Source: Perkinsus olseni
Lineage: Eukaryota
Direction of reading: 5' to 3'
Assembly (NCBI GenBank): GCA_013115125.1
Contig: JABANN010000012.1
Coordinates: forward strand, 1-64,000
DNA: 64,000 nt
Shown: one piece after another, positions 1 through 31,896 of the stretch
Position numbering within the stretch: position 1 is the first letter of the stretch
Layout of the letters: the number at the start of each line of letters is the position of its first letter
Translations under genes and position numbers: made by a program
Notes under the pieces: model-generated
The model's input: the letters and a program-made list of their open reading frames with translations, nothing else
The model's database searches: none
Told to the model about the DNA's origin: nothing

Positions 1-1651
1 CACGCGTATCGCTTAGACTAGCACTCTGATCAGTGATCACGTCATCGTGACGGATATGCTCTTCGAGTTCGTCATATTTGTTGTCTCATTCTCAATCTCG
101 TTGACAACTCAGTGCGATTGTTCTTCGGTCATACGGAAGTTCAGTGGTATTTTATTGGGCGTCGGTGTGCGAGGAATGTTTCTCAAGCGGGTACGGATAC
201 CCATTGGGCACTGGACGTTGAAGATGTGGTATGTCTGGTGTCTGAGCACCCAGAGACTTCATACCATCACACTCTACGAAGGGCTGCGGTGAATATCATT
301 CCTCACATGGGGGTCTTTCGTCGCTTCTACCAGCCACTCAGCATCACGTCTACGAGACACCTCACTGCAGATAGAACGCGTCATTATCAGAAATGCATAG
401 AACCTGTATTACTCTCAGAGAGCATTATGAGCAGACTTCACCGGCACCGAATAGTTATCAGAAGGACCTCGTGGCAAGGTCAGAGCGGGAAAGCCGAGTT
501 CTCGGCTGCTGAAACCTTCGGAGTCGAATCATCACTGATGATTCATCAGTTACTATACTTATTTAATTGCTGTTAGTGTGGGCTTTGCGCTGACATAGGC
601 CGGCTTTGACAAGCAAAATCATGGATCAAAACTTGAATCGAGGCAGTTGAATACTGTTCAATAAACGCATTGACAAAGCTTCGTTGAATACATAATACAG
701 TGTATTAAATACACCCAATGGTTCTTTGGGTGTACACCCAATTCATAGGCTTCTGAAGCCTTCGGCGAGAGGGATGAAGCTTGTTCACTCAAATGGGACA
801 CTATTGTGTAAGAGCCCTCGACGTCTCAACTTGAGAATATCACAGAAGAGTGTAGTAGCACAGACGATGTGTAGGAAACATGGTATAAATGAAGGTTCTG
901 CCAGACGGACTATGTCTGCCCTGGACACTGTCCAGACCCTGGGGAGTACGCGAACACGCCTAGTCTAGGCGTGTTAGTCTAGGCGGCCTAGACTAGCTTC
1001 GCTATGGTCCTCGTTTTGTCCTATGGAATGAACATGCATTGGTCTGTCATCCGCCAGTGCTCCGTGGAATGAATGGGAAGCAGGCTCCACGGTGGTGCAA
1101 GTTACACCGTGGCGTAATCTGCCACTTTTGCCAACTTGGCAGAACCTGCGTTCATCACGAAAACGCCAAAATGTCCAAATCTGCCGACCCCAACCCTAAC
1201 GGCGAAACACGGCGGGGGCATGGATTTCAGACAATGATTCCACTTCGCCAACAAAGTCAGGAATCCGCAGAAAAATTCTGCCATGTCTGTTCCCATTTAG
1301 AGGCCGCCAAGTTGGCCTTCTCCGGTCTCTGCCACCGTATTCCGCCTAAAAATTATACTTGTGCCCCTGGAAATCCGGTTGGCAACGATTTGGCGGAATT
1401 CGACTCGGCGAAACCTGTTACACCCAAAATTTCCGAGGGACGAACCTCGCTCGCCCAACTTCTCGACAAATGCGCTGCCAACGGTGCGGTCAGCGCTCAA
1501 GTTCAGGGAATTGTTAACATACCGGTGGCTGTACATAGACGTGCGAGCATCCGCACGCTCGTCAGCCGAGTGCTGCAGCCCGTGCGCTACGGCCTAGTAC
1601 GAGACGCGCCCCCGATGGCGCGCCTCGTTGTTTAACCATTGCTTCATTAAT

Positions 1652-1793
1652 TTGTAGTGCAATATATTGCACGAAGATACAATTCGACAACCTGACACAT
1701 TGCTGTGTAATTGAAGTACTATTGTGTTAGCTGAGCTATAAGGTTTCTGTTGTTAGTTGTCCGTTTAGCATGATAAGTTTACGTTTCGTTTTT
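1652..1793 (+). repeat. Split direct repeat A1 (142 bp)
   Basis: TTGTAGTGCAATATATTGCAC...ACGTTTCGTTTTT, identical by eye to 6486-6627. Confidence 0.97.
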
Positions 1794-1802
1794 AAAGGTT
1801 GA

Positions 1803-2451
1803 TCCTTCCTGGTTGATCCTGCGGATGGGCCGAGGGTGACGGAGACGGACACGAGGTTGAAGGTTAGCCACTATATTGATGGTCTGGCGGACGGTAACTT
1901 TTCGGTTATCTCGCAGCAAGCATACGAACAACACCTAACGGCGTTGAGAGCCCGGTTCGGTGAGGTCGCGGATGAGTCTGTCCCTAGCCAGATATGCTGA
2001 AGTATGAGAGTGGTATCAGTGGCCTATTCAAGGTGTATGGTACAACTTACTGGCCTCAGATCTACGCTCTACCAACACGTGGGGTGACGCGTATGCCAGC
2101 GGTATGGGGGATTCTGCCTTTTGGATGGAACGAGTGGATAGAGTGGTGTTCCAACTTCAACGAGTTGGTAGGGAGTCTCAAACTCTGCCGTCAACAACAT
2201 CAAGATCATCGGGAAAGCGGGCCAGAGCTCCGAGGAGTGAGCAAGTGTGCTATGATTACCAAGGTGGTCGTTGTCCGGATGACCTTTGTCCAAATGGTCG
2301 CAAGCATATTTGTCTGAAATGCAGGACATCACACCCGTTGCCCAGGGGTAATAGAGATTGTAAGGCAGCAGGTACGGGAAAGACGCCCTTCTCGCCGTCA
2401 TCGGAAGTTCAGAAGCCTCGTGAAGGAGTTACGGTGTATCGTGGTGGTTAG
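1803..2451 (+). pseudogene. gag-like region (frameshifted, probably 5'-truncated) with C-terminal Cys/His zinc knuckle
   Basis: Three consecutive frames (about 1803-2000, 1994-, 2104-2451). The last contains CYDYQGGRCPDDLCPNGRKHICLKCRTSH, a C-x7-C-x4-C-x5-H-x-C-x2-C-x3-H array resembling Ngaro-type gag. The first segment has no in-frame ATG. Confidence 0.7.
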
Positions 2452-2502
2452 GTTCAAGTTCAGTCCAAGAAGCCCAGAACGGACTGAGTAGGGTATGCAG
2501 GT

Positions 2503-4643
2503 GTGAACTCTCCTATGATGGGTCAGATGACGGATGAAGTTGTTTGTGGTACGGAGGCCTCTCCTGATGAACAACTGAAGGTGTTATCGACAAATCCGTG
2601 TTTGGGAGGGTTACGGAGTCCTCATCTCTCTACTATCTGGCTACCTCATGGTATTATTTTATTTAAGCGTATTAAAGAAAGGTTCGAGTCTATCCTATCT
2701 AAAGATGGCGTCGCGGACGCGTTACTTTACGGTGAGGATCCTTTGGCGTGCCCGTTGGTGGTTACAGCCATTGACGAGGCGTCGGCGGCGCTGTTGGCAA
2801 TAACTGACTGTTCTGCAAGTGAGGGTAAACCCTCGCATGAACACTCTCCCGTCAAGGGCTTCCTCCTCCAAAGACTGGTATCCTTATGTGGTGACTGGGA
2901 CGTGGATGTGCCCCGGTGGTTTATCGAAGGGGCCCCTGTTGGTTTGAGTAAGGAGATTGATTACTGTAATATTTTCCCACGGAGTGGGAGGCCAGAATTG
3001 GAGCCGGATGGGTCTGACCGGTTCGAGAAGCTGGAATTTATTGATGAGTGGAGTAACGGCTCTTGTTTAGTAATTATCCTTCTACGTATGAGCACTACGA
3101 CGAGGTTTTGAAAGTGTTGAAGGCGGAAGAGGAGCGGGGTTTCTGTAAGCTATGCTCTACGTTTGAGGAGGTGAAGACATTGGTTCATGGTGATGATATT
3201 GTGCTCACCCCGTTGGCAGCGCTTCCCAAATCCAACGGGAAGTTGAGATTAGTTTCTGATTGTAAGGTTAATCATTTGAATGACTATTGTTTTGTAGATG
3301 AACATGTTGAACTTCCTCGGGTATTTGATCTGATAGAGGGCATTGTACAATTATTGAATTCTGCCAACGATCACGGTGAGTTCGTAGAGGTAGCGGTAAT
3401 AGATTTTGCGGACGCCGTCCGCACCATTCCGTTGGCAGTGGAGGAACGACCATTCCACGTGCTGCGTGTGGGTGGGTATTACGTTGTTTTCTTCTGTTTA
3501 TTTTACGGCCTCTCCTCTTCTCCGCTGTTATGGGGGAGAACTGCGGCATTATTGAGTAGATTAGGCCAACTTTTCTTTGTGACTTCAACTAATGTTCCTC
3601 TCGGTCGAATTGAGACGTTTGTAGATGACCCGGCAATGTGTGCCAGGGGACCAACTATTCAGGTGGCTCGGAGGCGTCTCTGGTTACCGGTACTCTTGTG
3701 GCTGGCACTGGGCTTTAGGCTGTCGTTTGGAAAGAGGCAAGTGTCGCTTCCAGTAAGGTGGATAGGGTTTATGATATCGAAGAAGGATATGAACGTTGTG
3801 GTGACTTTGCCCCTCGAAAAGCTTCGGGTTATATTGGAAATGGTTCGGCCACTACTGGTGGGGAAGGCCCGCATTGCTACGAAGAAGTTGCGAAGCTTAT
3901 GTGGTCGATTATCGTTTGCTGGTCAAATCGTGCCCTACCTGAGAGCGTTTGTCGCACTGTTATGGTCGAGACTGGCGAGGGCAGATGCGTCGAATCAGCA
4001 GTGGATTACCGTTGGTGATCTGGTCACCCCGCTGAAGTGGATTTGGTGTTTTCTGAGCAAGGCCGTGGCCAAGGACATGTCGAACACCGGTGATGGTGCG
4101 GATAATTACCTACGGTACTTTCCTGTTGAGAGGTTACATGTGGTGAGATGGTGTATCTGCGTTGATGCGAGCCCTACGGGTCTAGGAGGCTTCCTCCGAA
4201 AAGGTGAGGAGATTGTCTCTTGGTTTGCGGATCCGTTAGATGAGTGCGACTGTTTGAAGTTCGGTGCAGTTATAGGTGACTGTCGGTGGCAGTCGGTGTG
4301 GGAATTGCTGGCCGTCTTAGTCGCAATTCGGCTATGGTCGTCTCGGATACCCTCGAATGTGAGAGTCATGTGTGAGTCTGATTCGGTGGTTGCCCTCTCG
4401 GCAGCTTCCCGATTGCGCTCAAAGTCGCCCAGTTTGAACTGTATTGCACAGGAGTTGGCTTTGCACTGCGCCGTAGTGGGTGTATGGTATCAAATTAAAT
4501 TTGGACATGTCGCCGGTGTGAGGAACCAGATTGCTGATGACCTTTCTAGGTTGAAGGAAGGTCGGCAAGTCCCTAGCTGCCTAGAAGGGGTGTCGCGGAC
4601 GAAATGCGACAAAAGAGATGGTTCTTTTTGGTTGGTCCCCTAG
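2503..4643 (+). CDS. Reverse transcriptase-RNase H (pol), split by a frameshift near 3060
   Basis: ORF 2503-3111 (DVDVPRWFIEGAPVG...IFP) continues into ORF 3063-4643: NYPS, KLRLVSD, IDFADA, FYGLSSSPLLW, TFVDD (about 3615-3629), WIGF, then RNase H motifs VDASPTGLGG, WELLAV, ESDS, NQIADDLSR. Confidence 0.92.
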
Positions 4644-4933
4644 GCGTTTCTTCTACTCTCTTGGTTGACAAAGGAGAGTTGAGTTGTTGACGGCGGGGAG
4701 GAGAATAAGGTACCTGATATGATTGTGCTCGTGCCTTGTGGCCGGGTTCGACTCTAGATGATGGTCATTGGGGCGAGGGTTGGTCTAGAGTCTTCCACGC
4801 CTCATGTGTGTTGGAGATAGGCGACTAGGCGCGTGATGAGGCTAGCGGTAGTACCGCAGCAGTAAGTAGGACGTAAGGGGGGCATTTTCTCTCTTTCAGT
4901 AGTAAGTCTTCTTGGCCTTAGGAGAGGGAGATT

Positions 4934-6125
4934 ATGGCTCCTTACCGTCGGGGGAGCCCAGCTCAAGCGAAGTTGTTAGCAGATCCAATTAATCGGAAGC
5001 AGCTCACTGGCATAGTGGCGAAGTTCAAGGACGAGGAATACGCGGCGAGCACTCGACGTACCATGGAGTCAAGGTTTAAACTGTGGGCTCGCTTGGCGAT
5101 GGGTCTGGGGTGTTCTCCGCTCCCGGTTACGGTGTATTTGGTTACCACCATCTCGGCTATCTTGAAGTACTCAGGGTATCGGAGCGTGTGGAGCTACGTC
5201 CAGACAGCTATGAACTATCATGTGGAGGCGGGTTATGATTGGACACCGGCGGAGTCGGCCGCCGTTAGAAGAGCCCGTCGGGCGAGTGTGCGGGGCATCG
5301 GCCCCCCCCAGAAGGATGACGCCGTTATCTATGAAGCACTTAGATGATTTGGTGGAATGGGCTAAGGGGAGCTACCCAGCGCAGTGTAGAACGAGCTTGT
5401 ATGTCCTCGCGTCGTGGTTTCTGCTGAGGGCATCAGAAGTGGTGGCATTGCTCTGCCAGGATTTGGTAGTGGACGAGATCAAGAGAGAAGTGTCGGTACA
5501 CATAAGGACTTCGAAGACTGATATCGAGGCAGCTGGGAGCCGGCGATCTCACGGCTGCGCCTGCCAAGGCGACGAGGCGACAAGAGAGCTGGAGGCCGCT
5601 CGACCTCAAGATCAGTTAGTGGTGGAGAGATCGGGGCAACCGATGACAAAACGTAAGTTGTTGGAAGATTTGCGAAGTGACCTTGGTGAGTCGGGAGCGA
5701 TAACGTCGGAGGAGGAGTTGAGACCAGAATGCTTTGGGACACATTCTTTCAGAAGAGGAGGTACACAGTTCCTAATTCGCTTTATCAGTTGGGAAAAGGT
5801 GCAGACGTTTGGGAGATGGCGAAGTCCGAACTCGATGAAGCGGTATGTGGAAGAGGCCAACTTAGCTGACAGCTCTCAGTTTGCAAAGCGAGTGGTGAAG
5901 GGCTGGTTCCAGCAGCCTGCTGGTTCCACAAGCAGCCAGGAGCAGAAGGCCGACTCAATGTACAAGGGAGGCGTGGGTGTCAGTCTTGGAGGTTACCAAG
6001 TGGAACCAGAGCCTGAGGTCCCGGCAACAAGTGTGCGAACCTGGGTGAGGAGACGCTATGAGTTACCTACAAGGAGTTGGCTACGACCCGGGTGCAGCAA
6101 GGCATGGGTGAGGACCTCTCCGTGA
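4934..6125 (+). CDS. Tyrosine recombinase (phage-integrase fold), split by a frameshift at a C8 run (5302-5309)
   Basis: N-terminal core-binding part (YAASTRRT...LKYSGYRSVWSYV...RGIGPP) plus catalytic motifs FLLRASEV (R), SKTD (K), THSFRRGG (HxxR), GRWRS (W) and RYV (Y). Removing one C fuses the ORFs as RGIGPPRRMTPLS. Confidence 0.92.
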
Positions 6126-6171
6126 GGCGATAGAGGTATGTGGTCCATATCTATCCGGTAGCGTGTGAATT

Positions 6172-6485
6172 GGGGAGTTTTGGGGACTAAGCTGTAGTAC
6201 CAGAATTTATAGACTGTCTGTATGTGTACTGGTCCGCCAATCAGTGCTCGATGTGGTTAGCCCGATCGTGACTGCTGATGTGTTGGGATGGGATTCAGTA
6301 TCCGCATCAGTACGAGTAACATCAGCGGTGTTGGTGTGAGCGATCTATCGACCATTGGCGGCCACCACCTTTACTACTACAGCTGAGTCAACACGTTACC
6401 GGGTTTCGGATATGGGCCAATTACTGATGATATATGTGTGATTGAGTTGATGGGTTTTTGAGTAGTGTGGAGGGAAAGGATTGTA
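6172..6485 (+). repeat. Split direct repeat B1 (314 bp)
   Basis: Matches 6652-6965 except A/G at 6243 versus 6723. Confidence 0.97.
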
Positions 6486-6627
6486 TTGTAGTGCAATATA
6501 TTGCACGAAGATACAATTCGACAACCTGACACATTGCTGTGTAATTGAAGTACTATTGTGTTAGCTGAGCTATAAGGTTTCTGTTGTTAGTTGTCCGTTT
6601 AGCATGATAAGTTTACGTTTCGTTTTT
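6486..6627 (+). repeat. Split direct repeat A2
   Basis: Identical to 1652-1793 and directly abuts B1 (...GGATTGTA|TTGTAGTGC...). Confidence 0.97.
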
Positions 6628-6651
6628 TTAACCCACCCTCTCCGCCCGGGG

Positions 6652-6965
6652 GGGGAGTTTTGGGGACTAAGCTGTAGTACCAGAATTTATAGACTGTCTG
6701 TATGTGTACTGGTCCGCCAATCGGTGCTCGATGTGGTTAGCCCGATCGTGACTGCTGATGTGTTGGGATGGGATTCAGTATCCGCATCAGTACGAGTAAC
6801 ATCAGCGGTGTTGGTGTGAGCGATCTATCGACCATTGGCGGCCACCACCTTTACTACTACAGCTGAGTCAACACGTTACCGGGTTTCGGATATGGGCCAA
6901 TTACTGATGATATATGTGTGATTGAGTTGATGGGTTTTTGAGTAGTGTGGAGGGAAAGGATTGTA
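6652..6965 (+). repeat. Split direct repeat B2 (element 3' terminus)
   Basis: Copy of B1; ends ...AGGGAAAGGATTGTA followed by unique flank GCAGTGACGG. Confidence 0.97.
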
Positions 6966-7349
6966 GCAGTGACGGGAATTGAGCGATTTCAGCACGCCAC
7001 GCTAGTAGCAACTGTCAGGATAAAACTAGGATTTGATAGTCCAAACCTTATAGTGTGATCGGTCGGATAGCTAGGAATGACAGGTACTCCCTTCGGTCAG
7101 TTTTCGCTTGATACAAGTGGGGACAGAATTGCGTGCTGTCGGACGCGTAGAGTCAGTACTACTGACTTGTCGCGCCTTCTGGTTTCGCAGCAACCAGCGA
7201 CTGCGACGAGTTGGAGCCTCGGAACGAAAATGCGGGTGACTTTTCCCCGCCTTTACATTGAGTTGCGCCACGTCGAGATCGAACAAGGTACGTGATAAAC
7301 CGTTGAAGTTTCTACTAATCCAACTTTACATGTATGTGCATCGCAGGTT

Positions 7350-9100
7350 TCGTCGTCACTAGAATATCACACTGTGCGTGTCTCTCAGAGCACTCTACTG
7401 CGACCTCAAGTTCCAACAAGGAGAACTGCGGAAGAACATGGGTCTTTGTTGAACATTCACCATTATCCTCTGTGAAATCATGCTATTCTCCATGCGCCGT
7501 TGAGATGTGTTGAATACGTACAGAAAATAGTACTCAGCCTCTCGGGATAAACGGTGACCGCGCCTGAACAACAGCGCACAGCACAATCCACATGCGATTC
7601 CGGAGCCGTCCATTGAACAAACGATACATCGTGGGTTCTGCGTTTCAGATCACCGTGCAAAGCATCTGTCTCATCGGCTCTTCATGGTAAATTCTCACAA
7701 AGAAACTGCGGCCATCCCTAATTTCCTTCCGCTGAAGGCGAGGGGTGATCTTAGTAGGGCGGTGAATCCTCCTGAGAGTGTCTGCGACGGACGAGTCATC
7801 GTCGTCGGCGACAGCGGTGAGTTCAGCATAACACATTGTCATAGCTGACCACAACGTGGGAAGATTCGTTCTGGCCTCTCTGGGTGTCCGAGGGGATCTT
7901 CCATGACCCCCACGAACGTGTTGATCAACATTCAGTGAGAGCCATCAGGTGTGGGCAAGACGAAGCTCGTATCGTTGCTGAGGAAACTGTTGAGTGAGCG
8001 GAACACAACGTTCCCCGAGGAGCTCTTGAAGAGGAAGCATCCAATAGCCCACTATTTCATCCCAGGGAAGGCCACAATTGGAGTGGTGAGGTATCGCTCT
8101 TACACTTAGTTGGCTTCCATCGTATGGCGGATGTATCAGCTTGCGAGTCTTTGACAGCCTCTCGCTTTCGTCACTGTGTTTGTCCCGCTCCGTATTTGAG
8201 TAGCTCGTAGGACTACGTTCCTCTGACGTTAAGCCATGGGAAGGATGAGAAAACGATAGGTGTTTGGGACTGCGGAGGCTATAGTGGGTGAGCCACCCGC
8301 GTCCTCACGAATGCAGACCACCCAGTTATCATTTCAGCTTTGCCGAGATACGAGGCGAGTTGTACAAGGAAAGCGACTTAGTGATATTTTGTTACAACAG
8401 TGGGTTGAGTCAGCCAGGCCCTCTGCCTCGCTACCTAATCCCCGATTGAGTAGCTTTCTACAGTCCGCTGCCTCAGTACATGACAAGCATTCCTACATCT
8501 CTCTAGAGGGCTGGATGAAGGAGGTGGCGAGTTCCGCTCCGAAGATAATGATGTCCAAACAATCCATAGTGAGACTCGGAGAAGCGGGTAGAGTGCTTTC
8601 CGAGACGGAGGCCGTGGGGGACTTCATCGCCCGGAATCAGCGCAGGGGATGCACCCTCATTCACGTGTTCAGGGGAGCGACATCGCAATAGATGATGTCT
8701 CGTTCCGCGTCTGTGTCCTCCTGCATCACTTGCCCAGATTGTTGGCCTTGGAGGGCACTCGGCTTCCGTTGGCCTAGCGAAGCCACGACAAGTTTCGTTC
8801 AAACAAGCGAGAGATTGGGCAGTCGGAAGCAAAACGTGTTGCGAGTAAGTTTCATGACTGCGTAGGACCCTCACGTCATGCGCACGCTTCATGTACTTCG
8901 ACATTCCTTCGTTCGGCACTGACGAAGAGACGGTAGCTACTCTCCACACGCTTGGGGAGGCCATCCTCATGGCCCTGGAGAAGATAGCATCTTGAGCCCT
9001 TGTTGCTCGACCCGTCGCTGCAGTGGTGCGATCCATCAACGATGGGCCATGTGAAGACCACACTCGTTGGTTCAAACCTCATTCATCGCCTTCCAGTTTG
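7350..9100 (-). pseudogene. Possible highly degenerate DNA-transposase (hAT-like) remnant
   Basis: Broken minus-strand frames with weak hAT-like patterns: IWASDAGG, IYCDVAPLN (cf. CxxHxLN), TNLPTLWSAMTMCYAEL, VECSER. Many stops and no TIRs identified. Confidence 0.25.
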
Positions 9101-10072
9101 TCGACATTGCGAGTTAGCCAGTTGCGTATCATCGCAAAATGGTTTTCTGTTGGGTTTTAGTCAGTTGTCACGGCGTCAACGTCCTTCCGTGACATTCCGA
9201 GATCGGAAAAGAGAGACCGCTGCATCTACGGGGTATAGATTAGAACGTAGCATCCCGATCTGGCTGATCGCTGGCGAACTGCGCATCAATTTCAAAATTC
9301 TCCCACCGCCACAAGGCCAACGGCCGGGACTCGGATGGGCTCTCGCGACTACTCGGCGTCCGATATCTCCATGAAAATACAATACAGTAGGTATCGGAAG
9401 CCACGTGCGTTCGATGGTTAAGGCTGATGCAAGGGCAGACTCCCTGCCAGTGTAGCGCTTGCGTTGTCTACTGAGTAGTATGTTATTATTGGTCGTGACT
9501 CACGGCCAGGAGAGGCAGGGCTGAGCGGGGTGCTATAGGATTCCTCAGGGAACGATATCGACATCATTCCTGTCATCATCACCTGCATATTCTGGGCCAG
9601 AATTTCTGGCACAGTATACGCATAGATAAACCTCAACACTACCGTTTGCGGCGAGTGCTTGTTCTGCGCTTTGTTTCTAGGCAGTTGTTATTCGAAACTT
9701 TCTTGGAGGTTCGCTTGTGAGAGCTACTGTCTGCATCGTCTCAGCGATCCCCGCATAGTGCGTACTCCGATCTCTCAATCGACTGTTTTGCCACTGGAAC
9801 ACAGGGCTCCAAGTATAAGTATCCGGGTGTCTGTCCTTGGCCTTCGAGTTACGACTAGCAGCTACACTCCCATGTTGCCTTTAGTTCGCAGCTGGCGTTG
9901 AGCACGTAACGGGAGTGTCCTCAACTAAGGGAGCCGAGGCTGCCGGCCTTTACCTTTTTGGATTCTGACTGAACTCTAACGCTGGTCACATGGATTTGCA
10001 GTAAATGAACAACTTGATAAATTGCATGAGTCAAAGAATTCATGTACCGACGATGAGACCCATCTTCAGAAA

Positions 10073-12170
10073 TCACATTCTTCGCAGTTTGACTCGCCGA
10101 AGACGAAGAACTGAAAGGCACGAATAGCAAGAATACAGGAGCGCAACCACAGAGTCGGGCGAGAGTCTACTAGGGTCAAGGAGACCATGAATCGATGCCA
10201 CACTTACAATGGATTCAACTGAGTAGGGTATCTCGTCCGCGGGTTCTTCCCCGCATGCTTTCATGACGCATTGATGAAAAGCGGGAGTACCCTCCACTCC
10301 TGCCGGCATCAAGCCAAACATTTGCAGAAGTACTGTGTTTTCTTGAGTGCTCATTGTTCTGCTGCCATCGAGGTCCATTGCGGAATATGTTGCAAAGGTG
10401 CTCCTACAAGCCGGCAAGCATTGTGTGGGAGAGCCTTTCGATAGCCATTTCTGACAGTATCCTGTGAGGGTTTGTACTAAGCCAGTGAGAGCACTTTCAA
10501 CCACACAAGCATCCTCGGACTCTGAACCGCAGTCCACGATGCCGCTTGTCCACTGGGGAAAGTTAGCATTTGTACAGATAGGGTTGCCGGCCAAGCCAAG
10601 ATACTCGAGATGGCGCATTTCCTTAAGGGAATCGAATGGTAGGTCTTGGATTTGTGATAGCTCGAACTGGAAGGACCGGATGGAGGGCAAGCGTTGATGC
10701 ACATCATCTGGGATTGTAGCTAGCCGCGTCGCTGTTATGGCGAGGACCTCAAGGTCGTCCAATGTCCCCAAGTTTAGCTCCTCTATAGGGACCGCCACCA
10801 TGTTGAGGACTACGAGCTCCTCCATCGCCGAGAGCGTATCAAGGAGAATCTGCGGTTGATCCGTGCACGTGGTCGACGAGGTCGGGTTACGGTCGGATAT
10901 CCTGAGATACTCTATCCTGTTGTAAAGTGACAAACGGGCCATGTCATCCTGCACACATGGGCCATGAAGATACATGGATGCCATCCGACAGTCGCAGGAG
11001 TTGGAATCTAGTATTGGATACACCGGAAGCAAACACTCATCATCGAACCGCGGGATATACTGCTCACAGTCTCCCGTTAACTGTGTTATTGTCACATAGA
11101 CGAAACCGCCGATACCAACGGCCCATAGCGTGAGAGCGATGAGATAGTAACCTGGGCTTGATCTTCTCGGAGCGCGGGTGAGCGCAGGATTCTTGGCGAT
11201 CTCCAGAAGGTATCGATCGATGCCTATAATGTTATCCAAGGAGAGGACGGCGGGGACGAGACTCGAGAGGAAGGATACGAAGGTGGTGAAGTATAGAGCA
11301 GGCCAAGTATCGGGTTCAGCTATGTGACCGGAGACAATAAGGTAGGCAGCAGTGAAGCTGAAGGCGGCCATAACGTCGAATAGACAAGCCCAGACTCTGT
11401 TGTTGAGAATGAGCGTTGTTGGGCCGACGATCAGTACCAACATAATGAGAGTAGCCTGGGTCATGATGGCTGTACGGTCTGCCACAAGAATCTTCTCCCC
11501 TGTGACGGAACGGCCACCAAGTTCAACCAGACGGATGATCTGCAGTAGGATATCCAGTATTTGCAAGGTGAAATAGCCATGCCAGAACCATTCTCCGGAC
11601 ATTTCAAACTTTCCCCTAAGAGCCATGAATATGTTGACCATTCGCTCCTTGAGGGTACGATCGGATCTTTCTCCAGACTCCTGAACTGTTTTGGCTCGAT
11701 ACTTCGAGAAATTTAATTTGTCTTTGTCGCTCATCAGCAGCGTTTTCACCACCATCGCTGCTCGCACCAACGACATGAGCCCAATGGACCCGAGAATGAT
11801 AGCCTCGATCACAGCCACAGCTTTGATTTCATAACGCGTATTCTTTGGGTTCGTAAGCGTCTCGGGGGTGAGAGTGTCGAGCTCGTCAGGCGAGGGAGGT
11901 ACTGCTATGATGAATTGAGCGTAGCACTGTATACCACAAATAAAGGCGAGGAGTATCTGATGGCAAGAGACGGTATTATGTCATGGTGAAGGACCATAAT
12001 TTGCACAAATCTTCGAGAGAACCTCGGGGCCACGAAAGTATCTCGCCCATGCTTAGTCCAGAACAGACGTCATAGGGGGAGGGCTGAGTCCTTACCAGTA
12101 AAAGCAAAAGAACAATCCTGTAGGCTGTGTTGTACTTATCTACCAATACTATGGCTATGTTCTGAAGAGA
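10073..12170 (-). CDS. Multipass membrane protein with leucine-rich repeats and an EF-hand-like loop
   Basis: 581-aa ORF with several hydrophobic helices, a Cys-rich linker, LRRs (LEVLAITATRLATIP; IRSFQFELSQIQDLP; LEYLGLAGNPIC) and DLDGSRTMSTQE. The frame extends upstream to an acceptor near 11957, with a further exon near 12096-12170. Ends are approximate. Confidence 0.75.
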
Positions 12171-13961: not shown

Positions 13962-16484
13962 ATGAAGCCCCCAGCCGGGCTCCTCACCCTCACCTTTCTC
14001 CTGATGGTGAATCTGATCTGTTACTGTACTGCCTTGACTGCTTCTCACGACTTGTCTACGACCCGGCCAAGCCCAGAGCCTGTAAAATTGAAGGGCACTT
14101 TGCGTGACAGGGGAAGGAGTTTGCACGTCATTGTCGAGAGGGTCGTGGATGCTGGCGATAACATAGCGGTCAATTTCGACCTTCTTGTCGAGGCCACGAG
14201 CAACATCCAGAACGAGTATCTTTGCCAACTGCCAAACTCAACGGAACTCTTCGCCCAGGCTGGTTATCAGTTCTTGGAGGTGGATCCTAGCCAGGGCACG
14301 GAGGAAGTGCAGGTAACAGCGTGTGAGCGAACGGACACGAATGGAGCGGGCACAGTCCCACCCTTGCCTGACCAACCACAGGCATTGGCATTCGGTAGTA
14401 TGGGTGGGAGGGGGTAGGTCGTTAGCTGTGGGCCGTCGAGGATTGAAAAGGATATTTGTGTTGAAGTCTCTGGGTAGGCGTGTGAAGGAGATGTGTTCAG
14501 GGTGCAGCGCGTTCGAGGCGACCTCGTCGATCGCGCCGAACCAGCTGTGCATGGATGAAGGGCGGATGGCCTACGATTACTTTCGCTCACCCGTCCCTGC
14601 TGGCTTCGACAGTCGGTGTAATTGTCAGCAGGCAACGAGGTCATACAGGGCAGGGCACGTATATCGATTCATACCAACTCTTCCGTAACTCTCAGATGTA
14701 AGAACGGCGAATCATGGCCTGTAGATAAGGCAGGGAACACCTATCCAGGCCGAACGGCTGCGTCTGCTTGGTGGGAGGCGACTCGCGATGATGAGTGGAA
14801 GTACGAGGTACTAACAGTGGGCGGGTCGTAGTGGTTAGACCAATCGGGAATTTCGTGGCGCAGTGACGGTAAGGCATCCCCTGTCAGACAGCCGTTTGCA
14901 CCACTACCGGCTGCTCCTGCTGGCTTGCGTGTACTCAAGAGGAATACGATCCCTGCAAAGGGGAGTTCAGGGGCGACGGGCAGCTGACGGTTAACCAAGT
15001 TAATCAGTATTTATACGACGGTTATCCTTTGCCCCCGACGCATGGTGGTGCCTCGGCTTCGGCGGAGTCTGCGACCAAGCCGCAATTCAGGATGCGATAC
15101 AGGCTGTCCGGATACGCTGACGTGAAGGCCGCGGTCGCGGATGCTAATAGAATAAGGAAGTTGGCGCCAGGGCTTGGTGCTTCTGTACAGAGAGCGTTCG
15201 AAGCAGCAGCCAACGTCGCATTGACTGCGGAAAATTCGATTGAGCTGTTGGAGGTCGACAGCCCGGTATCGAACGACAACGATCAGAGCTTGTTGGGTAT
15301 CTTCACTTACGTTGGGATACTACCCTCGGCCTTCGAGTCATGCGCAAGCAACATGGCTGGCAGCGCCTTTAACGGGGATAATAAGAACACCAACGTTGCC
15401 GTCGAGAACGGTGCCAACGAGGTTAAGGTGTACACAGAAGTGTCGGCTGGAGGGGATCGGGAGGGCTCAGCGAACAGGATGGAGACCTTGATCACCGGAT
15501 CGCTCTTGACGAGCTGCGCAAGCCCTGCAAGTATAAACCCCGCCGATATACCGATGCTGGAGTCACGGCAGGCTCCCCAGCCGACCACTGCCCCTGCCAA
15601 GAAGAATCCTGCTTTACCATGGTAAGCCAGGGAGATGGGACTGGGGTGACAGAGAAGGGGAAGTACCTTTGGTTGGCTCTGCTGGTTATTGTGCAGGTAT
15701 GCATGGCTGCTCATTGCAATCGGTATCGTCCTCGTGATAGCAGCGTGCGTGTACATCTGGTGGATTTTGGCGTCGAGGCGGAAACAACGTGAAAATCGAC
15801 TGAAGCTTTCGGACGAAGCCGACGGGGATGGCTGTTGTAGTGAGAGAGGACTAGTGCCTGGCATTGCTCCGGCGACAGGATACGTAGATGATGATGCCGA
15901 CACGGCCACCGTCACAGGAATTGGGGTAAGCCGCCGGGGTCAACGTCTAGAACCCGTCCACGCTGCTTTATCGTCGACTTGGATGATGGTGAATCGGGCC
16001 GTGTTGGTGCCAGCGGTTTGGGGCGGCATGGCTAGTCTGTAAGAATCGGGTCTAGCCTTGCCATGAGTGAAGTATTCATAAGCTCTCTCCGAGGGTTCCT
16101 GGGCGTCCAGTGGTTCATCCGGGTTTGCTCGTGCTGGTCTACGCACGGCCTTGTTGTCGTTTCTACAGCGGGCGGTGGGTCATTCAGTGATTACCTTCCT
16201 CGTCAGAGCATCTCGACCCACGCAAGGCTCCCGTCATCTGCCACACACCGGGCGTCGCCAGTCGACGTCCCCACGGCAGTGGTGTCAGTGAACCCTGACG
16301 GATCCCTGTAAGCATCATTAAGAAGCTGCCATTTCTATCATGCTTCTCGCCCCCCCTCAGCACCCCTCGGCTGCCCCTAGCCCCCAAGAACCCTGTGGCC
16401 AAGTCCTCCAGCTCCCTGATCACCACAACGCCCGATACTGGCGGCCATCGCGACAGTACTCGGTCGCATGAAGCTCCTTATTAA
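13962..16484 (+). CDS. Type I membrane/surface protein, paralog 1 (multi-exon)
   Basis: Signal peptide MKPPAGLLTLTFLLMVNLICYCTA, Cys-rich ectodomain exons, TM YAWLLIAIGIVLVIAACVYIWWIL followed by RRKQR, low-complexity tail. 3' end approximate. Confidence 0.65.
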
Positions 16485-27572: not shown

Positions 27573-28832
27573 TCAGAACTGGAGAACTGCACCATAAACC
27601 CCTATGACGATGACAACTAAGCCGATCGCAATGAGTAATACATGCAGGAGAAGTTCCCATTTTGCGAAGGGTAACTTGTGCTGCCTTTTTATTTTCATAT
27701 AGCACGCGATGGGAAACAGAATAGAGATCTGTGTCACACAGAGGGCGCCTATCATGCTCACCAGACTACTGACGTCGGGGACGACTATCGCTATGCATCC
27801 ATCAAGAATGACGAGACAAGTCCGACCGACAAGACAGGCGATCTTGGTGTGCGAGGCAGACGATTGCCTCCTCTCACCAACGTTAGAGCTCAGCACGTCG
27901 ATCTGCTTCGCCGTCGGCGTAAACAGAACGAGGAAATGTGGTAACATGACTATTAGTATCACAATATTGATGAGCCAACCGAAGACGTCGAGAGGCTGGC
28001 CGGGTGGGGATATCGCGTCTACGATCGTATCGACCTTCGTTAGGAATTGGCCATACGCCGCGTAGCCGAGCTCCATAACGGACATGTACAACAGAGTTAT
28101 CAACAATACCGCGGCAATTAACGTTTTGGGGAAATCCATGGGCCTGTTCATGTGGTAGCACACCGTGGGACTCGTCGCCGTGAAAGCAAAGACGAAGAAG
28201 TAGGAGGCTAAATTCGACAAGAAGTCGATAGCTCCTCGAGGCGCAGTTACAAGGCTGTCAGGGGCGCTACCAGAGATTAACCTGTTAGCCGAAGCAACGA
28301 GAATAACAATGACCATGGCCGAAGCAGATGTGACACCAACAGCCGCGACGAGACCGACGTCCTTGACCTCCTTGATCCACGAGAAAGGTATGCCGATAGC
28401 GGTCCAGATCAACGCCCAAATGCGCTTATGAAGAATATGGGTCATTGCATAACACGTTGATCCGAGCAGTACGAGCATCGCGGAGCACACTGATACTAGG
28501 AAGACATGGATGATGACCCCAAAGTAGATCGAAACAGCGGTACCGTAAGAGGCTCGAACAGCTTCCTCGTAGCACCTAACCACTTGATTTTCGCCATCAG
28601 CGGCAAGGTGCAGAGTTTTCCACAGGAGGATGTTGTTGTAGAAGGTGACGGCTGCCGCGAAGGCGAGGCCGATAAGACTGCCGAGCCACCCGGAGCGAGT
28701 GGCTGTACCCGGTAGCGCCAAGATGCCGACGCCAACACAGCCCATAACAATAGTGCAAGCAGCTCTCATCCACCCTAGGCCGGTCGCAGTGTTTGGCACA
28801 TCAGCAGGAGTTGTTTTGATGTCGTCTGTCAT
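27573..28832 (-). CDS. Amino acid transporter (AAAP/Aa_trans family), copy 1, 419 aa
   Basis: MTDDIKTT...IVMGCVGVGILALPGTATRSGWLG; about 11 hydrophobic segments; HMNRPMDFPK motif. Confidence 0.92.
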   Translation of the reverse strand: MTDDIKTTPADVPNTATGLGWMRAACTIVMGCVGVGILALPGTATRSGWLGSLIGLAFAAAVTFYNNILLWKTLHLAADGENQVVRCYEEAVRASYGTAVSIYFGVIIHVFLVSVCSAMLVLLGSTCYAMTHILHKRIWALIWTAIGIPFSWIKEVKDVGLVAAVGVTSASAMVIVILVASANRLISGSAPDSLVTAPRGAIDFLSNLASYFFVFAFTATSPTVCYHMNRPMDFPKTLIAAVLLITLLYMSVMELGYAAYGQFLTKVDTIVDAISPPGQPLDVFGWLINIVILIVMLPHFLVLFTPTAKQIDVLSSNVGERRQSSASHTKIACLVGRTCLVILDGCIAIVVPDVSSLVSMIGALCVTQISILFPIACYMKIKRQHKLPFAKWELLLHVLLIAIGLVVIVIGVYGAVLQF

Positions 28833-29819
28833 ATGGCAGCACGAGGAGAGGCCGTACAGCTGCAACTCGCGCATTCGGAAATTGAGGACAAGGAAAGCCC
28901 ACCGATATCCACGGGCACTACTCGAGTACTTCCTAACTGCTTGATATTCGTACAGTGGCTGTACTACAGCCGTCATAGTTCGCCACGCCCCTGTACATGC
29001 GTATCCATGCCCTGTGTGACGCGAGTCAATCGATCCCTCCAAGTTAGCTACACTAGCGCCTCTTCTTTCCAATGGAAAGTTTCCATACCTCGGATCGTAT
29101 CGGCAGTGCTCATCTGTTAATGACGCCATGGTCGCAACTCGATCGGCTTGCTCTTCGCGCGCAAATCTTACGGCGTGAGGCTTCGGGGTCCGGAACTCAA
29201 GGGCGCTTGTACGCCTCAGCCCAAGCCAATATGTCGTCGGTAAAGTCAACTTGACTGTAAGTGGCTGTGCGAAAGCAGTTTGCCCCTGTACTTTGGTTCA
29301 TAATCACTACGAGTTGAAAGGCGGGAGGTAGACTCCCATTCGAGCTCGCCCACGCGGGGAATTAACTTTGCACGCGTGCACATCGTGCATCGCGCACGAC
29401 CGGGTAATGTTCGTAATTGGCGCCAAGCGAGGCCGACACAGGCCGAGGCACCGACCAAGTCGCGGTAGCCGGGCGTTGCGGGATACACGAGAATGGCCCG
29501 GAGGGTGGATATAAACTTCTTAGGCCGGTAACGTTCGATTAGCTCTACAGCATCGCGTGGAATACAAGTTGTATTATACAACCGCCGACTTGCTGGATGA
29601 ATTTCCGTCCGCCGTATCGCTGGGTCGGCCCCATTAGGTAGCCCGCCGTTATCTGAAGCACTGCTCCCTCTCGGATCTGAAAGACTCAGTCGAACAATGC
29701 ATTGTACTAGAACTCGCAGGTCTCCAGCCTTGCAACGCCTCTGGCCGCCTGCTACCGAGACCCTGCGGGCAGGGCAACAGAAATCTACCACCACGAAGGG
29801 TGAATGGAGGCACGACCCT

Positions 29820-30468: not shown

Positions 30469-31896
30469 CTACTTATATGCACAGAAGACGTGACACAACG
30501 CAGCCAGGCGGCGCAACCTCGGACTCGGGGGTCGAATTTGTTGATTCGGAAAAATCGAGCCGCGACAGAAAGACGAGAAGCCGATGCCGTCGAGGCGGCC
30601 AGACTTCCCGACTCCCCAAAATTTGTTTAAAGAACCTCCGAAATGCACAACCGCACCGTAGAGCCCTATCACGATCACCATGAGCCCAATCACGAAAAGC
30701 AATACGAGGAGAGGCACTTCCCACTTAGGGAAGGGATACTGGTGTTGCCTCTTTATCTTGACGTAGCACGCGATGGGGAACAAGATAGAATTCTGTGTCA
30801 CACAGATGGCGCCTATCAGGCTCACCAGACTGCTGACCTTGGGGACGACAATGGCTATGCATCCATCAAGAATGACGAGACAATTCCGACCAACAAGACA
30901 GGCGATCTTGGTGTGCGAGGCAGACCATTGCCTTCTCTCACCAACATTAGAGCACAGCACGTCGATCTGCTTTGCCGTAGGCGTGAACAGAACGAGGAAA
31001 TGTGGTAACATGACTACCAGTATCACAATATTGATGAGCCAACCGAAGACGTCAAGAGGCTGACCGGGTGGGGATATCGCGTCTACGATCGTATCGACTT
31101 CCGATAGAGATTGACCATACGCCGCGTAACCGAGCTCCATAACGGACATGTATACCAAGGGGATGAAGATCATCGCGGCAATCAAAGTTCTCGGGAAATC
31201 CATGGGTCTGATCATGTGGTAGCACACCGTGGGGCTCGTCACGGTGAAACTGAACACGAAGAAGTAGGTAGCCAAATTCGACAAAAAGTCGATAGCACCA
31301 CGAGGAATGACTGCGATTTCTTCAGGAATGCCATCAGTAAGCATTTTGTCGGCCGAAGCGGCAATTATAATGATGACCATGGCCGAAGCAGACGTGACAC
31401 CAACAGCCGCGACGAGACCAACGTCCTTGACCTCCTTGATCCACGAAAAAGGTATGCCGACAGCGGTCCAGATCAACACCCAGATACGCTTATCCAGAAC
31501 GCGAGTCATTGCGTGACTCGTAGACCCCATCAAAATCAACATCGCGCAACATACTGAAGCTAGAGAGACGTGGATGACGACTCCCGAGTAAATCGAAACA
31601 GCGGTACCGTAAGTGGCTCGAACTGCTTCCTCGTAGCACCTAACCACTTGATGTTCGCCATCAGCGGCAAGGTGTAGAGTTTTCCACAGGAGGATGTTGT
31701 TGTAGAAGGTGACGGCTGCCGCGAAGGCGAGGCCGATAAGACTGCCGAGCCACCCGGAGCGAGTGGCTGTACCCGGTAACGCCAGGATGCCGACGCCAAC
31801 ACAGCCCATAACAATAGTGCAAGCAGCTCTCATCCACCCTAGGCCGGTCGAAGCGTTCGACACATCAGCAGGAGTTGTCTTGATGTCGTCTGTCAT
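30469..31896 (-). CDS. Amino acid transporter (AAAP/Aa_trans family), copy 2, C-terminally extended
   Basis: Collinear paralog of copy 1. The codon equivalent to copy 1's TGA is GGA (30637-30639), extending the ORF to 30469. Confidence 0.92.
   Translation of the reverse strand: MTDDIKTTPADVSNASTGLGWMRAACTIVMGCVGVGILALPGTATRSGWLGSLIGLAFAAAVTFYNNILLWKTLHLAADGEHQVVRCYEEAVRATYGTAVSIYSGVVIHVSLASVCCAMLILMGSTSHAMTRVLDKRIWVLIWTAVGIPFSWIKEVKDVGLVAAVGVTSASAMVIIIIAASADKMLTDGIPEEIAVIPRGAIDFLSNLATYFFVFSFTVTSPTVCYHMIRPMDFPRTLIAAMIFIPLVYMSVMELGYAAYGQSLSEVDTIVDAISPPGQPLDVFGWLINIVILVVMLPHFLVLFTPTAKQIDVLCSNVGERRQWSASHTKIACLVGRNCLVILDGCIAIVVPKVSSLVSLIGAICVTQNSILFPIACYVKIKRQHQYPFPKWEVPLLVLLFVIGLMVIVIGLYGAVVHFGGSLNKFWGVGKSGRLDGIGFSSFCRGSIFPNQQIRPPSPRLRRLAALCHVFCAYK

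What the first reader, a model, noticed from the sequence alone, without database searches (positions are those of the whole stretch)
1652..6965. Ngaro-like tyrosine-recombinase retrotransposon with both termini preserved in a protist genome
Seen: A1-[gag knuckle, RT/RNase H, YR]-B1-A2-spacer-B2, all on one strand. Established: split direct repeats plus YR without a methyltransferase domain define Ngaro-type DIRS-order elements, thought to integrate via a circular intermediate. Inference: the host is a Perkinsus-like alveolate, where I do not know of such elements being characterised, so this may be a new family or lineage.
Basis: partly seen in the sequence, partly recalled or inferred. Interest (0 to 1): 0.85.

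Follow-up and report, generated by a model that had tools for sequence, protein, structure and literature searches.

The report
Ngaro-type tyrosine-recombinase retrotransposon in Perkinsus
This is a real jumping gene of the tyrosine-recombinase (DIRS/Ngaro) kind in the clam parasite Perkinsus olseni, with both ends intact but broken genes inside, and it belongs to a large group already seen in related dinoflagellates, so it is a new example rather than a new kind.

Summary
Window 1652-6965 (+) is one element: A1 (1652-1793), gag-like pieces, Pol (N-domain, RT, RNase H), tyrosine recombinase (YR), B1 (6172-6485), A2 (6486-6627), a 24-nt spacer and B2 (6652-6965). A1/A2 match 142 of 142; B1/B2 match 313 of 314.

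The host is Perkinsus olseni. RT/RNase H is supported by a confident fold (pLDDT 89.8) matching retroviral and Ty3 RTs. The YR keeps R..HxxR..W..Y. There is no methyltransferase and no target duplication.

By layout it is Ngaro-type. Placement in the Ngaro clade could not be tested, because no labelled references were available.

This copy is coding-defective. Gag is in three frames with pieces missing, Pol has a -1 shift near 3063-3072, and the YR is shifted at a C8 run. It is nevertheless present in RNA contigs.

Relatives are abundant: 1391 representatives at E<=1e-30. They include three dinoflagellates and a second P. olseni family. Symbiodinium DIRS elements with the same A-coding-B-A-B layout were published in 2018.

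Verdict: a new member of a known kind, of modest interest. Extras are conserved end signals and a spliced RNA form.

The parts
1652..1793 (+). A1, the 5' split direct repeat. It starts TTGTA, followed by the perfect 16-bp palindrome GTGCAATATATTGCAC, then TACAA. It ends in a T run.
   Evidence: 142/142 identical to A2. Sequence read. Hairpin z-score -2.53.
1803..2451 (+). Gag-like region in three frames: 1803-2000 (f0), 1988-2068 (f2) and 2044-2451 (f1). It lacks about 100 N-terminal residues plus segments of about 81 and 14 residues that are present in the P. marinus relative P0003.
   Evidence: tblastn of P0002/P0003; frames shown.
2248..2361 (+). Conserved Cys/His cluster of gag (CX7CX4CX5H plus CX2CX3HX8C). 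It is knuckle-like but not canonical CCHC.
   Evidence: The same pattern occurs in P0002 and P0003. No Pfam match.
2488..3072 (+). N-terminal helical domain of Pol (GGLR motif at 2605-2616). In this copy it lies in frame 1, one frame away from RT.
   Evidence: P0004 aligns to 2548-3063 (f1) and then 3072-4640 (f0). The region is helical with pLDDT >90 in the model.
3057..4643 (+). RT/RNase H ORF. RT motifs are DFADA (3402-3416) and FVDD (3618-3629). RNase H motifs are DASP (4164), E in WELLA (4299-4313), ESDS (4374-4385) and ADDLSR (4533-4550). The stop is at 4641-4643.
   Evidence: Invariant D/E columns. Relatives pass Pfam RVT_1 and RT_RNaseH cut-offs. Fold matches retroviral, CaMV and Ty3 RTs at E 1e-12.
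4204..4549 (+). A 346-nt GT..AG segment (AAG|GTGAGG ... TTTCTAG|G) skipped in RNA contigs. The joined form stops right after the junction and lacks 3 of the 4 RNase H acidic residues.
   Evidence: Joint in X6 (side 255) and X17 (side 26); 0 contigs in DNA runs X1 and X3. Sequence and product.
4934..6125 (+). Tyrosine recombinase in two frames. The N-terminal part is 4934-5311 (f2) and the catalytic part is 5304-6125 (f0), with the shift at the C8 run 5302-5309. Catalytic motifs are R in LLRASE (5421-5438), SKTD (5511-5522), HSFRRGG (5742-5762), GRW (5811-5825) and Y in KRYVEE (5838-5855).
   Evidence: Pfam Phage_integrase E 3.8e-5, 24.0 bits, cut-off 27.1. Halves mapped with P0010. Alignments. 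Profile matches Cre at E 0.004.
6172..6485 (+). B1, the first copy of the 3' repeat. It starts G-rich (GGGGAGTTTTGGGG) and ends GGATTGTA.
   Evidence: 313/314 identical to B2. Read.
6486..6627 (+). A2, the internal copy of A. It abuts B1, so the B1|A2 joint equals the joined ends of the element.
   Evidence: An X6 contig carries B followed by A.
6628..6651 (+). C-rich spacer (TTAACCCACCCTCTCCGCCCGGGG) between A2 and B2.
   Evidence: A C-rich spacer with a CCCACCC core sits at the same place in 4 of 4 complete elements (window, L037, L040, L052).
6652..6965 (+). B2, the terminal repeat, ending GGATTGTA before the flank GCAGTG.
   Evidence: The right junction is bridged by DNA contigs of two studies.

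Best explanation
Window 1652-6965 is one integrated copy of a DIRS-order tyrosine-recombinase retrotransposon of Perkinsus olseni. Its layout is Ngaro-type: A1-[gag, Pol = N-domain/RT/RNase H, YR]-B1-A2-spacer-B2.

It belongs to a Perkinsus-specific branch of a very large RT/RH family shared with dinoflagellates.

Likely mechanism (inferred from published models for such elements, not shown here):
1. An RNA running from A1 to B2 is reverse-transcribed.
2. The internal B1|A2 joint, which equals the joined ends, lets the complete unit be rebuilt.
3. The YR recombines the B|A joint (core TTGTN) with a TTGT-containing, AT-rich target, leaving no target-site duplication.

This copy has near-identical repeat pairs, so it inserted recently or was homogenised. 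Its gag, Pol and YR frames are all interrupted. It is therefore most likely non-autonomous and was moved in trans by intact relatives. It is still represented in RNA.
For: Structure. Repeat pairs match 142/142 and 313/314, and B1 abuts A2. There is no duplication at the flanks...CATTAAT | element | GCAGTG....

RT/RH.
- The catalytic D/E columns are invariant.
- 5 of 11 relatives exceed the Pfam RVT_1 cut-off and 2 of 11 the RT_RNaseH cut-off.
- The model has pLDDT 89.8 and pTM 0.89. Its best PDB matches are foamy-virus PR-RT, MoMLV, CaMV and Ty3 RTs at E about 1e-12, prob 1.00.

YR.
- Phage_integrase E 3.8e-5.
- R38, H143, R146, W168 and Y177 of P0008 are invariant in 12 sequences.
- The profile matches Cre over its HxxR-W-Y part, E 0.004.

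No methyltransferase. None was found in the 6 ORFs scanned. Pol stops 31 codons after ADDLSR, and only about 290 nt separate it from the YR start.

The linkage is a family trait.
- RT/RH is followed by YR in P0012 (P. chesapeaki), P0095, P0045 and P0092.
- The YR lies downstream of RT in 27 of the 28 metagenome loci that hold a YR, out of 53 loci in all.
- Three complete relatives (L037, L040, L052) show the same A1..B1-A2-spacer-B2 layout.

Defects. Relatives' Pol aligns across frames 1 and 0 with the switch at 3063-3072. The YR halves switch at the C8 run. Gag is in three frames. The Pol shift is present in the contigs of both DNA studies, and RNA contigs carry the same letters across both shifts.

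Other copies. A contig in X1 and X3 enters A at 1647 from a different flank, and variant contigs with indels exist.

Trans action has precedent: the section headings of PMC7192593 state that DIRS-1 RT and proteins act in trans (abstract and outline seen).
Against: - Pfam scores for this copy are below the curated cut-offs (RVT_1 E 0.22; Phage_integrase 24.0 against 27.1 bits).
- The YR fold model was poor (pLDDT 53). Its tyrosine-recombinase matches are weak (best E 0.023, TM <0.2).
- No intact P. olseni copy was seen, because no genome is held. Trans-mobilisation therefore has no identified helper.
- Near-identical repeats alongside broken ORFs could also mean that recoding rescues the frames.
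- In this copy the B1|A2 joint carries TTGTA twice, whereas each end carries it once. A simple one-core exchange does not predict this.
- Experimental work on DIRS-1 found mostly linear single-stranded cDNA, so a circular intermediate is not established for the order (PMC7192593 abstract).
- No piece of any run spans the whole element.
Confidence: 0.85

Rival explanations
1. The copy is autonomous. The frame breaks are read through by recoding: a -1 ribosomal shift between the N-domain and RT near 3063-3072, and a +1 shift or polymerase slippage at the C8 run in the YR. The short gag is the normal form for this P. olseni family.
For: The Pol shift is in the retroelement-typical -1 direction. 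It is present in both DNA variants and in RNA contigs. The YR break sits exactly on a homopolymer. Repeat pairs are near-identical, as expected of a recently active element. Passages of PMC3783388 say the YR ORF of such elements can be frameshifted and overlapping.
Against: - There is no canonical X XXY YYZ slippery heptamer at the Pol site.
- Relatives read straight through: L037 and L040 have single Pol ORFs of 1670 and 1750 aa, and P0004 and P0012 are continuous there.
- Gag needs two further frame changes and lacks segments conserved in three Perkinsus gene models.
- RNA contigs show the same C8 as the DNA, with no slipped consensus. A C6 variant in DNA does not restore the frame either.
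Confidence: 0.1
2. It is not Ngaro in the phylogenetic sense. It would belong to a separate, Dinozoa-wide (Perkinsus plus dinoflagellates) superfamily-level lineage of the DIRS order that shares only the split-repeat layout with Ngaro.
For: - The RT is too divergent for Pfam (E 0.22). de Mendoza et al. say the same of Symbiodinium DIRS RTs.
- The family is huge and, where named, comes from dinoflagellates or Perkinsus.
- Pol has a conserved helical N-domain.
- The cis details are shared by 4 of 4 complete elements.
Against: No labelled Ngaro, PAT, DIRS1 or VIPER sequences could be brought into a tree here, so distinctness is untested. By the operational criteria used in the literature (A-pol-B-A-B and no MT; PMC3783388, PMC8547959) it is simply Ngaro. 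Atlas neighbours by features are RVT_1 clusters labelled Mollusca and Cnidaria, which hints at kin outside alveolates.
Confidence: 0.3
3. It is an assembly artefact or chimera: an RT element and an unrelated YR gene or Crypton joined by collapsed repeats.
For: No single contig or read spans the element. The repeats break all short-read contigs. The window has one G more at 6648 than every DNA contig laid, so the assembly does have homopolymer-level differences.
Against: Both flank junctions are bridged with 0 differences in the DNA runs of two studies, and interior contigs tile it. The same gene order on one strand recurs in P. chesapeaki, in three dinoflagellate proteins and in 27 of 28 metagenome loci with a YR. 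Three relatives have the same repeat layout.
Confidence: 0.02

Closest known systems
Ngaro-like elements (DIRS order), e.g. those of Cafeteria burkhardae (PMC8547959, passages read) and of fungi (PMC3783388, passages read)
   Same: A1-[ORFs]-B1A2B2 split direct repeats. ORF order is gag-like, RT/RNase H, YR. There is no methyltransferase, protease or DDE integrase. Size is about 5-7 kb.
   Different: RT is only weakly recognised by Pfam RVT_1. Pol carries a conserved helical N-terminal domain. There is a C-rich spacer between A2 and B2. Clade membership is untested. This copy has broken frames.
Symbiodinium DIRS elements, with (SymbioDIRS-Dnmt3) or without DNMT (de Mendoza et al. 2018, PMC5890265, passages read)
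   Same: The host is from the sister lineage (dinoflagellates). They share the A-coding-B-A-B repeats, a Pol ORF plus a separate YR ORF, and an RT too divergent for Pfam seeds. Named relatives of the window's RT/RH are dinoflagellate proteins.
   Different: No DNMT domain was found in the window's Pol. I did not test whether the named dinoflagellate relatives are the published SymbioDIRS families. Their supplements were not seen.
PAT-like elements (PAT, kangaroo, TOC)
   Same: Split direct repeats and the order gag, RT/RH, YR.
   Different: PAT-like Pol carries a methyltransferase domain after RNase H (PMC3266345 passage). Here Pol stops 31 codons after the RNase H ADDLSR motif.
DIRS-1 of Dictyostelium (DIRS1-like)
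   Same: YR instead of integrase, RT/RNase H, and no target-site duplication. An internal sequence reproduces the joined ends: the ICR there, the B1|A2 joint here.
   Different: DIRS1-like elements have inverted terminal repeats plus an ICR, a methyltransferase domain and overlapping ORFs. None of these is present here.
VIPER/TATE of kinetoplastids (PMC6681497, passages read)
   Same: Split direct repeats A1..B1-A2-B2, with repeat pairs up to 100% identical.
   Different: By my recollection VIPER places the YR before RT/RH. Here, and in 27 of 28 related loci, the YR follows RT/RH.

Membership tests
DIRS order (tyrosine-recombinase retrotransposons) | Pol with reverse transcriptase and RNase H | tested here: met
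   Motifs DFADA and FVDD, and D370/E416/D442/D494, are invariant. Relatives pass Pfam cut-offs. Fold matches retroviral, CaMV and Ty3 RTs at E 1e-12. This copy alone scores only E 0.22 for RVT_1.
DIRS order (tyrosine-recombinase retrotransposons) | Tyrosine recombinase in place of a DDE integrase | tested here: met
   Phage_integrase E 3.8e-5, below the cut-off. R..K..HxxR..W..Y is conserved. The profile matches Cre at E 0.004. No rve or protease family was found in the 6 ORFs scanned. The fold check was inconclusive.
DIRS order (tyrosine-recombinase retrotransposons) | Insertion without target-site duplication | tested here: met
   The flanks CATTAAT and GCAGTG share nothing. The same holds for L037, L040 and L052, so 4 of 4. 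Only one insertion of this family could be examined.
Ngaro-like | Split direct repeats A1-[ORFs]-B1-A2-B2 | tested here: met
Ngaro-like | ORF order gag, RT/RNase H, YR on one strand | tested here: met
Ngaro-like | No methyltransferase domain in Pol | tested here: met
   No Pfam methyltransferase family. The Pol stop at 4641-4643 is 31 codons after ADDLSR. 0 of 32 relatives scanned carry one.
Ngaro-like | RT/RH (and YR) fall inside the Ngaro clade in trees with reference elements | not testable with these tools
   No labelled Ngaro, PAT, DIRS1 or VIPER sequences could be obtained. The tree holds only unnamed, dinoflagellate and Perkinsus rows.
PAT-like | Methyltransferase domain after RNase H | tested here: not met
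DIRS1-like | Inverted terminal repeats plus an internal complementary region | tested here: not met
   The only inverted pair in 1-10000 is the palindrome at the start of A. The ends are direct repeats.
VIPER-like | YR ORF upstream of RT/RNase H (order recalled, not from a call) | tested here: not met
   The YR lies downstream of RT/RH.
SymbioDIRS-Dnmt3 | Cytosine DNMT domain inside the Pol polyprotein | tested here: not met
   No DNA methylase family in the window's ORFs.
LTR retrotransposons (Gypsy, Copia, BEL) | Two identical LTRs, a protease and a DDE integrase | tested here: not met
   The repeats are split (A at the 5' end, B-A-B at the 3' end). No protease or rve family was found.
Crypton DNA transposons | YR without a reverse transcriptase | tested here: not met
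   RT/RH and YR lie inside one repeat-bounded unit, and they are linked in relatives.

The most novel reading that the evidence does not exclude
The Perkinsus element and its dinoflagellate relatives form a distinct, ancient lineage of the DIRS order, separate from animal and fungal Ngaro.

It would have its own conserved cis-machinery:
- a TTGTN recombination core at the B|A joint and in the target;
- a hairpin at the start of A;
- a CCCACCC-type spacer unique to the A2-B2 joint.

It would also have a conserved helical Pol N-domain, and a regulated splice that removes most of RNase H to make a second Pol product.
Probability: 0.25. Interest if true: 0.55.

Novelty: new member of a known kind. 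Interest (0 to 1): 0.35.

Why it matters
It gives a clean, repeat-bounded reference copy of a tyrosine-recombinase retrotransposon for Perkinsus. There the two genes are filed only as 'hypothetical protein' and 'Tyr recombinase domain-containing protein'.

It links the Perkinsus elements to the very large dinoflagellate DIRS radiation.

The four-way comparison of ends suggests testable cis-signals for a class of elements whose integration chemistry is still mostly inferred. These are the TTGTN core, the terminal hairpin and the C-rich spacer.

For genome annotation of Perkinsus it marks FOL46_000804 and FOL46_000805 as transposon genes, not host genes.

It does not open a long-standing question.

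Tried and rejected
- Whole-genome copy census: no genome is held for this window.
- Loose-end letters of other copies (after 4829 and after 5376/5480) were searched in the window with up to 3 mismatches. There were 0 matches, so those variants diverge into sequence not in the window.
- PDB by sequence with the single YR ORF: 0 matches at E<=1.
- YR fold: pLDDT 53, pTM 0.30. Foldseek gave no match at E<=0.001. The top rows are tyrosine recombinases at E 0.02-0.3 with TM <0.2, too weak to count.
- Viral contigs: 0 relatives of RT/RH.
- tRNA and Rfam scans of 1-12000 and 1-9000: nothing.
- Complementarity between the C-rich spacer and the start of B as a hairpin: judged by eye across the four elements and found inconsistent, so dropped.
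- A circle or tandem reading of the X6 contig 'A-end, spacer, B, A' (joint 6650 to 6172): rejected. B1 and B2 collapse in a word graph, so the genomic order B1-A2-spacer-B2 gives the same path.
- No joint skipping 1652-6965 (an empty site) was listed in the four runs. Contigs show presence, not absence.
- Contig depths were not used as copy numbers.
- The intron in the GenBank model P0001 that bridges the Pol frameshift is not seen in the RNA contigs, which are colinear across 2854-3284 and 1764-4201.
- Atlas look-alikes gave only unnamed RVT_1 clusters labelled Mollusca or Cnidaria, which are not informative for placement.


Full report
**1. What is in the sequence**

Repeat search and self-BLAST find two direct repeat pairs on the + strand. 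A1 is 1652-1793 and A2 is 6486-6627 (142 nt, 100%). B1 is 6172-6485 and B2 is 6652-6965 (314 nt, one mismatch at 6243/6723).

Reading the joints shows four things:
- B1 abuts A2 directly (GGATTGTA|TTGTAGTGC).
- A 24-nt C-rich spacer (6628-6651) lies between A2 and B2.
- The left flank ends CATTAAT and the right flank starts GCAGTG, so there is no target-site duplication.
- A starts with TTGTA, then a perfect 16-bp palindrome (GTGCAATATATTGCAC), then TACAA.

No second copy lies in the 64-kb window.

**2. Host**

The RT ORF (3057-4643) is 100% identical to P. olseni FOL46_000804. The YR ORF is 100% identical to FOL46_000805, which UniRef names 'Tyr recombinase domain-containing protein'. Relatives at 57-61% identity occur in P. 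chesapeaki and P. marinus.

The rest of the window carries ordinary eukaryotic genes: PUF, two amino-acid transporters, UCH/DUSP, SAC3/GANP and LRR. No whole genome is held for this window.

**3. The proteins**

*Pol.*
- The 528-aa ORF alone scores only E 0.22 against Pfam RVT_1.
- It aligns end to end with relatives. RT motifs (DFADA, FVDD) and four RNase H acidic residues (D370, E416, D442, D494) are invariant.
- 5 of 11 relatives pass the RVT_1 cut-off and 2 of 11 pass RT_RNaseH.
- A model of the GenBank protein P0001, built with 46 relatives, has pLDDT 89.8 and pTM 0.89.
- Its best PDB matches are foamy-virus PR-RT, MoMLV RT, CaMV RT and Ty3 RT (E about 1e-12, prob 1.00).
- Upstream of RT lies a conserved, confidently helical N-domain (GGLR motif; window 2488-3062). 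Relatives encode it in one frame with RT. I could not assign it a function.

*YR.*
- Pfam Phage_integrase scores E 3.8e-5, or 24.0 bits against a cut-off of 27.1.
- In an alignment of 12 sequences, R38, H143, R146, W168 and Y177 of P0008 are invariant, and the SKTD lysine region is nearly so.
- The profile finds Cre over its HxxR-W-Y region at E 0.004.
- The fold model was poor and adds nothing.

*Gag.* There is no Pfam match. A Cys/His cluster at 2248-2361 is conserved in the P. marinus and P. chesapeaki models. Metagenome relatives end their gag ORF with a canonical CX2CX4HX4C knuckle.

*No methyltransferase.* None was found in the 6 ORFs scanned, and none in 32 relatives. Pol stops 31 codons after ADDLSR.

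**4. State of this copy**

Relatives show where the frames break:
- P0004 aligns to frame 1 up to 3063 and to frame 0 from 3072. This is a -1 shift inside Pol, with no canonical slippery heptamer.
- P0010 aligns to frame 2 up to 5341 and to frame 0 from 5301. The shift falls on the C8 run at 5302-5309.
- Gag homology runs through three frames: 1824-1991, 1991-2068 and 2065-2433. It lacks about 100 N-terminal residues and two internal segments of P0003.

Relatives L037 and L040 have uninterrupted Pol ORFs of 1670 and 1750 aa.

The near-identity of the repeat pairs contrasts with about 2% difference to a variant contig (19 other letters and 8 gap letters in 1228 nt). Passages of PMC6681497 say that the A and B pairs should be nearly identical at insertion. 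My reading is that an already defective element inserted recently. Trans action of DIRS-1 proteins is reported in the headings and abstract of PMC7192593. Recoding remains a rival.

**5. Public runs (all laid as contigs)**

*DNA.* DNA contigs of two studies (X1, X3) bridge flank-to-A1 (1376-1681) and B2-to-flank (6936-7700) with 0 differences. X1 may be the source sample of the assembly.
- A contig in both runs enters A at 1647 from a different upstream sequence. At least one more insertion site therefore exists, and it shares TTAAT before TTGTA.
- Variant contigs carry indels at 2118, 4680, 5222, 5281 and 5302.
- At 6648 every DNA contig has one G fewer than the window.

*RNA.* RNA contigs (X17, on record as RNA; X6, guessed to be RNA) cover 20 and 29 of 30 bins.
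- X6 has a 2745-nt contig colinear over 1764-4201 that then skips 346 nt. With the cut shifted by 2 the skipped segment is 4204-4549: AAG|GTGAGG ... TTTCTAG|G.
- X17 shows the same joint, but with only 26 letters on the short side, below the tool's 31-letter rule.
- Neither DNA run shows the joint.
- The joined RNA would end Pol at ...GFLRKG*, removing E416, D442 and D494.
- Unspliced contigs are present in both runs.
- In X6 the contig over gag-RT has depth 205 against about 5 over the YR. The tool warns that such depths are a poor measure of expression.

**6. Relatives and placement**

A profile of five RT/RH sequences finds 17173 representatives at E<=1e-3, 6972 at E<=1e-10 and 1391 at E<=1e-30. 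The best 150 all score above 400 bits.

Of 30 proteins looked up, 4 carry organism names: Effrenium voratum, Prorocentrum cordatum, Polarella glacialis and a second P. olseni protein, P0149. The three dinoflagellate proteins have a YR after RT/RH.

A metagenome scan gave 53 loci. Of these, 28 hold a YR on the same strand, and in 27 it lies downstream of RT. Three loci from one metagenome are complete and repeat the window's layout.

Shared in 4 of 4 complete elements:
- a TTGTN or TGTC core at the B end, at the A start and at the left flank;
- a left flank that is AT-rich in 3 of the 4;
- a C-rich spacer with CCCACCC between A2 and B2;
- a G-rich start of B and a T-run end of A.

A hairpin at the start of A is better than shuffles in 2 of 4 (z -2.5 and -3.3; the others are -0.7 and -0.9).

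A FastTree of 152 RT/RH rows puts P0001, P0012 and P0149 in one clade (support 100) on a long stem. When rooted on P0014, this clade lies among rows that include the three dinoflagellates. That root sits on a very long branch, and supports along the path range from 42 to 99. I do not read direction of descent from it.

**7. Literature**

- Ngaro is defined by A-pol-B-A-B repeats and the lack of the DIRS methyltransferase (PMC3783388 passages; PMC8547959 passages; PMC3266345 passages).
- Symbiodinium DIRS elements with A-coding-B-A-B repeats, a Pol ORF and a separate YR ORF are described in PMC5890265 (passages). Some carry DNMT and some do not. Their RTs fit Pfam poorly.
- Ngaro is listed among the TE classes of Amphidinium in PMC11572971 (passages).
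- P. marinus appears in a 2011 table of species with DIRS1-like sequences.
- Searches for Perkinsus with 'tyrosine recombinase', with 'retrotransposon' plus 'DIRS', for 'Ngaro' with 'alveolate', and for 'Perkinsus olseni' with 'transposable elements' found no paper describing this element. The library lacks most subscription journals. The P. olseni genome paper was not among the hits.

**8. Verdict**

This is a real, well-bounded Ngaro-type DIRS-order retrotransposon of P. olseni. It is a coding-defective but expressed copy. It belongs to a Perkinsus branch of a radiation that is abundant in dinoflagellates.

It is a new member of a known kind. The conserved end signals and the splice inside RNase H are the parts most worth a follow-up.

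Noticed in passing
window 4204-4549: A 346-nt GT..AG segment inside the RNase H coding region is skipped in RNA contigs (X6 firmly; X17 with only 26 letters on one side). It is not skipped in the two DNA runs. The joined form stops Pol right after the junction. Unspliced RNA contigs coexist with it.
   Followed up: partly
window 6628-6651; L037 11179-11195; L040 8589-8614; L052 8880-8911: A C-rich spacer with a CCCACCC core sits between A2 and B2 in 4 of 4 complete elements, although their RT is only 26-31% identical. Its role is unknown.
   Followed up: partly
window 1647-1656 and 6480-6490; L037, L040 and L052 ends: The B end, the A start and the left flank share a TTGTN core (TGTC in L052). 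The left flank before it is AT-rich in 3 of 4 elements. A second P. olseni copy has the same TTAAT before TTGTA. In the window the internal B1|A2 joint carries TTGTA twice.
   Followed up: partly
window 6648-6655: The G8 run at the spacer/B2 border is one G longer than in every DNA contig laid (X1 269.6 of 269.6; X3 227.2 of 227.2). This is a likely homopolymer-length difference in the assembly.
   Followed up: no
window 900-1580: The left flank has several times the contig depth of the right flank in both DNA runs, and contigs branch away after 1425. The element seems to sit next to, or inside, another repeat. ORF 997-1635 has no Pfam match.
   Followed up: no
window 4829 and 5376/5480: Contigs of DNA and RNA runs leave the window's sequence at these points into letters not found in the window. 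Other copies or rearranged variants therefore exist, and the strongly represented RNA form (X6) ends at 4829.
   Followed up: partly
P0149 and P0010 (not in the window): P. olseni carries a second, divergent family of the same lineage. Its RT/RH protein is FOZ60_003793, and the YR FOZ60_008832 is 33% identical to the window's.
   Followed up: partly
L037/L038 (one contig), 14400-15605: A second copy of the same element lies in inverted orientation about 3 kb downstream of the first.
   Followed up: no
P0011, P0013; L052 4120-4803: Many relatives have 400-1000 extra residues before the Pol N-domain, with short motifs that recall cytosine methyltransferases (my recollection). Pfam reports no methylase there at E<=0.01.
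   Followed up: partly
window 27573-29297 and 30469-31980 (- strand): Two neighbouring amino-acid transporter genes (Aa_trans, E 1e-43 to 1e-44) look like a tandem duplicate.
   Followed up: no
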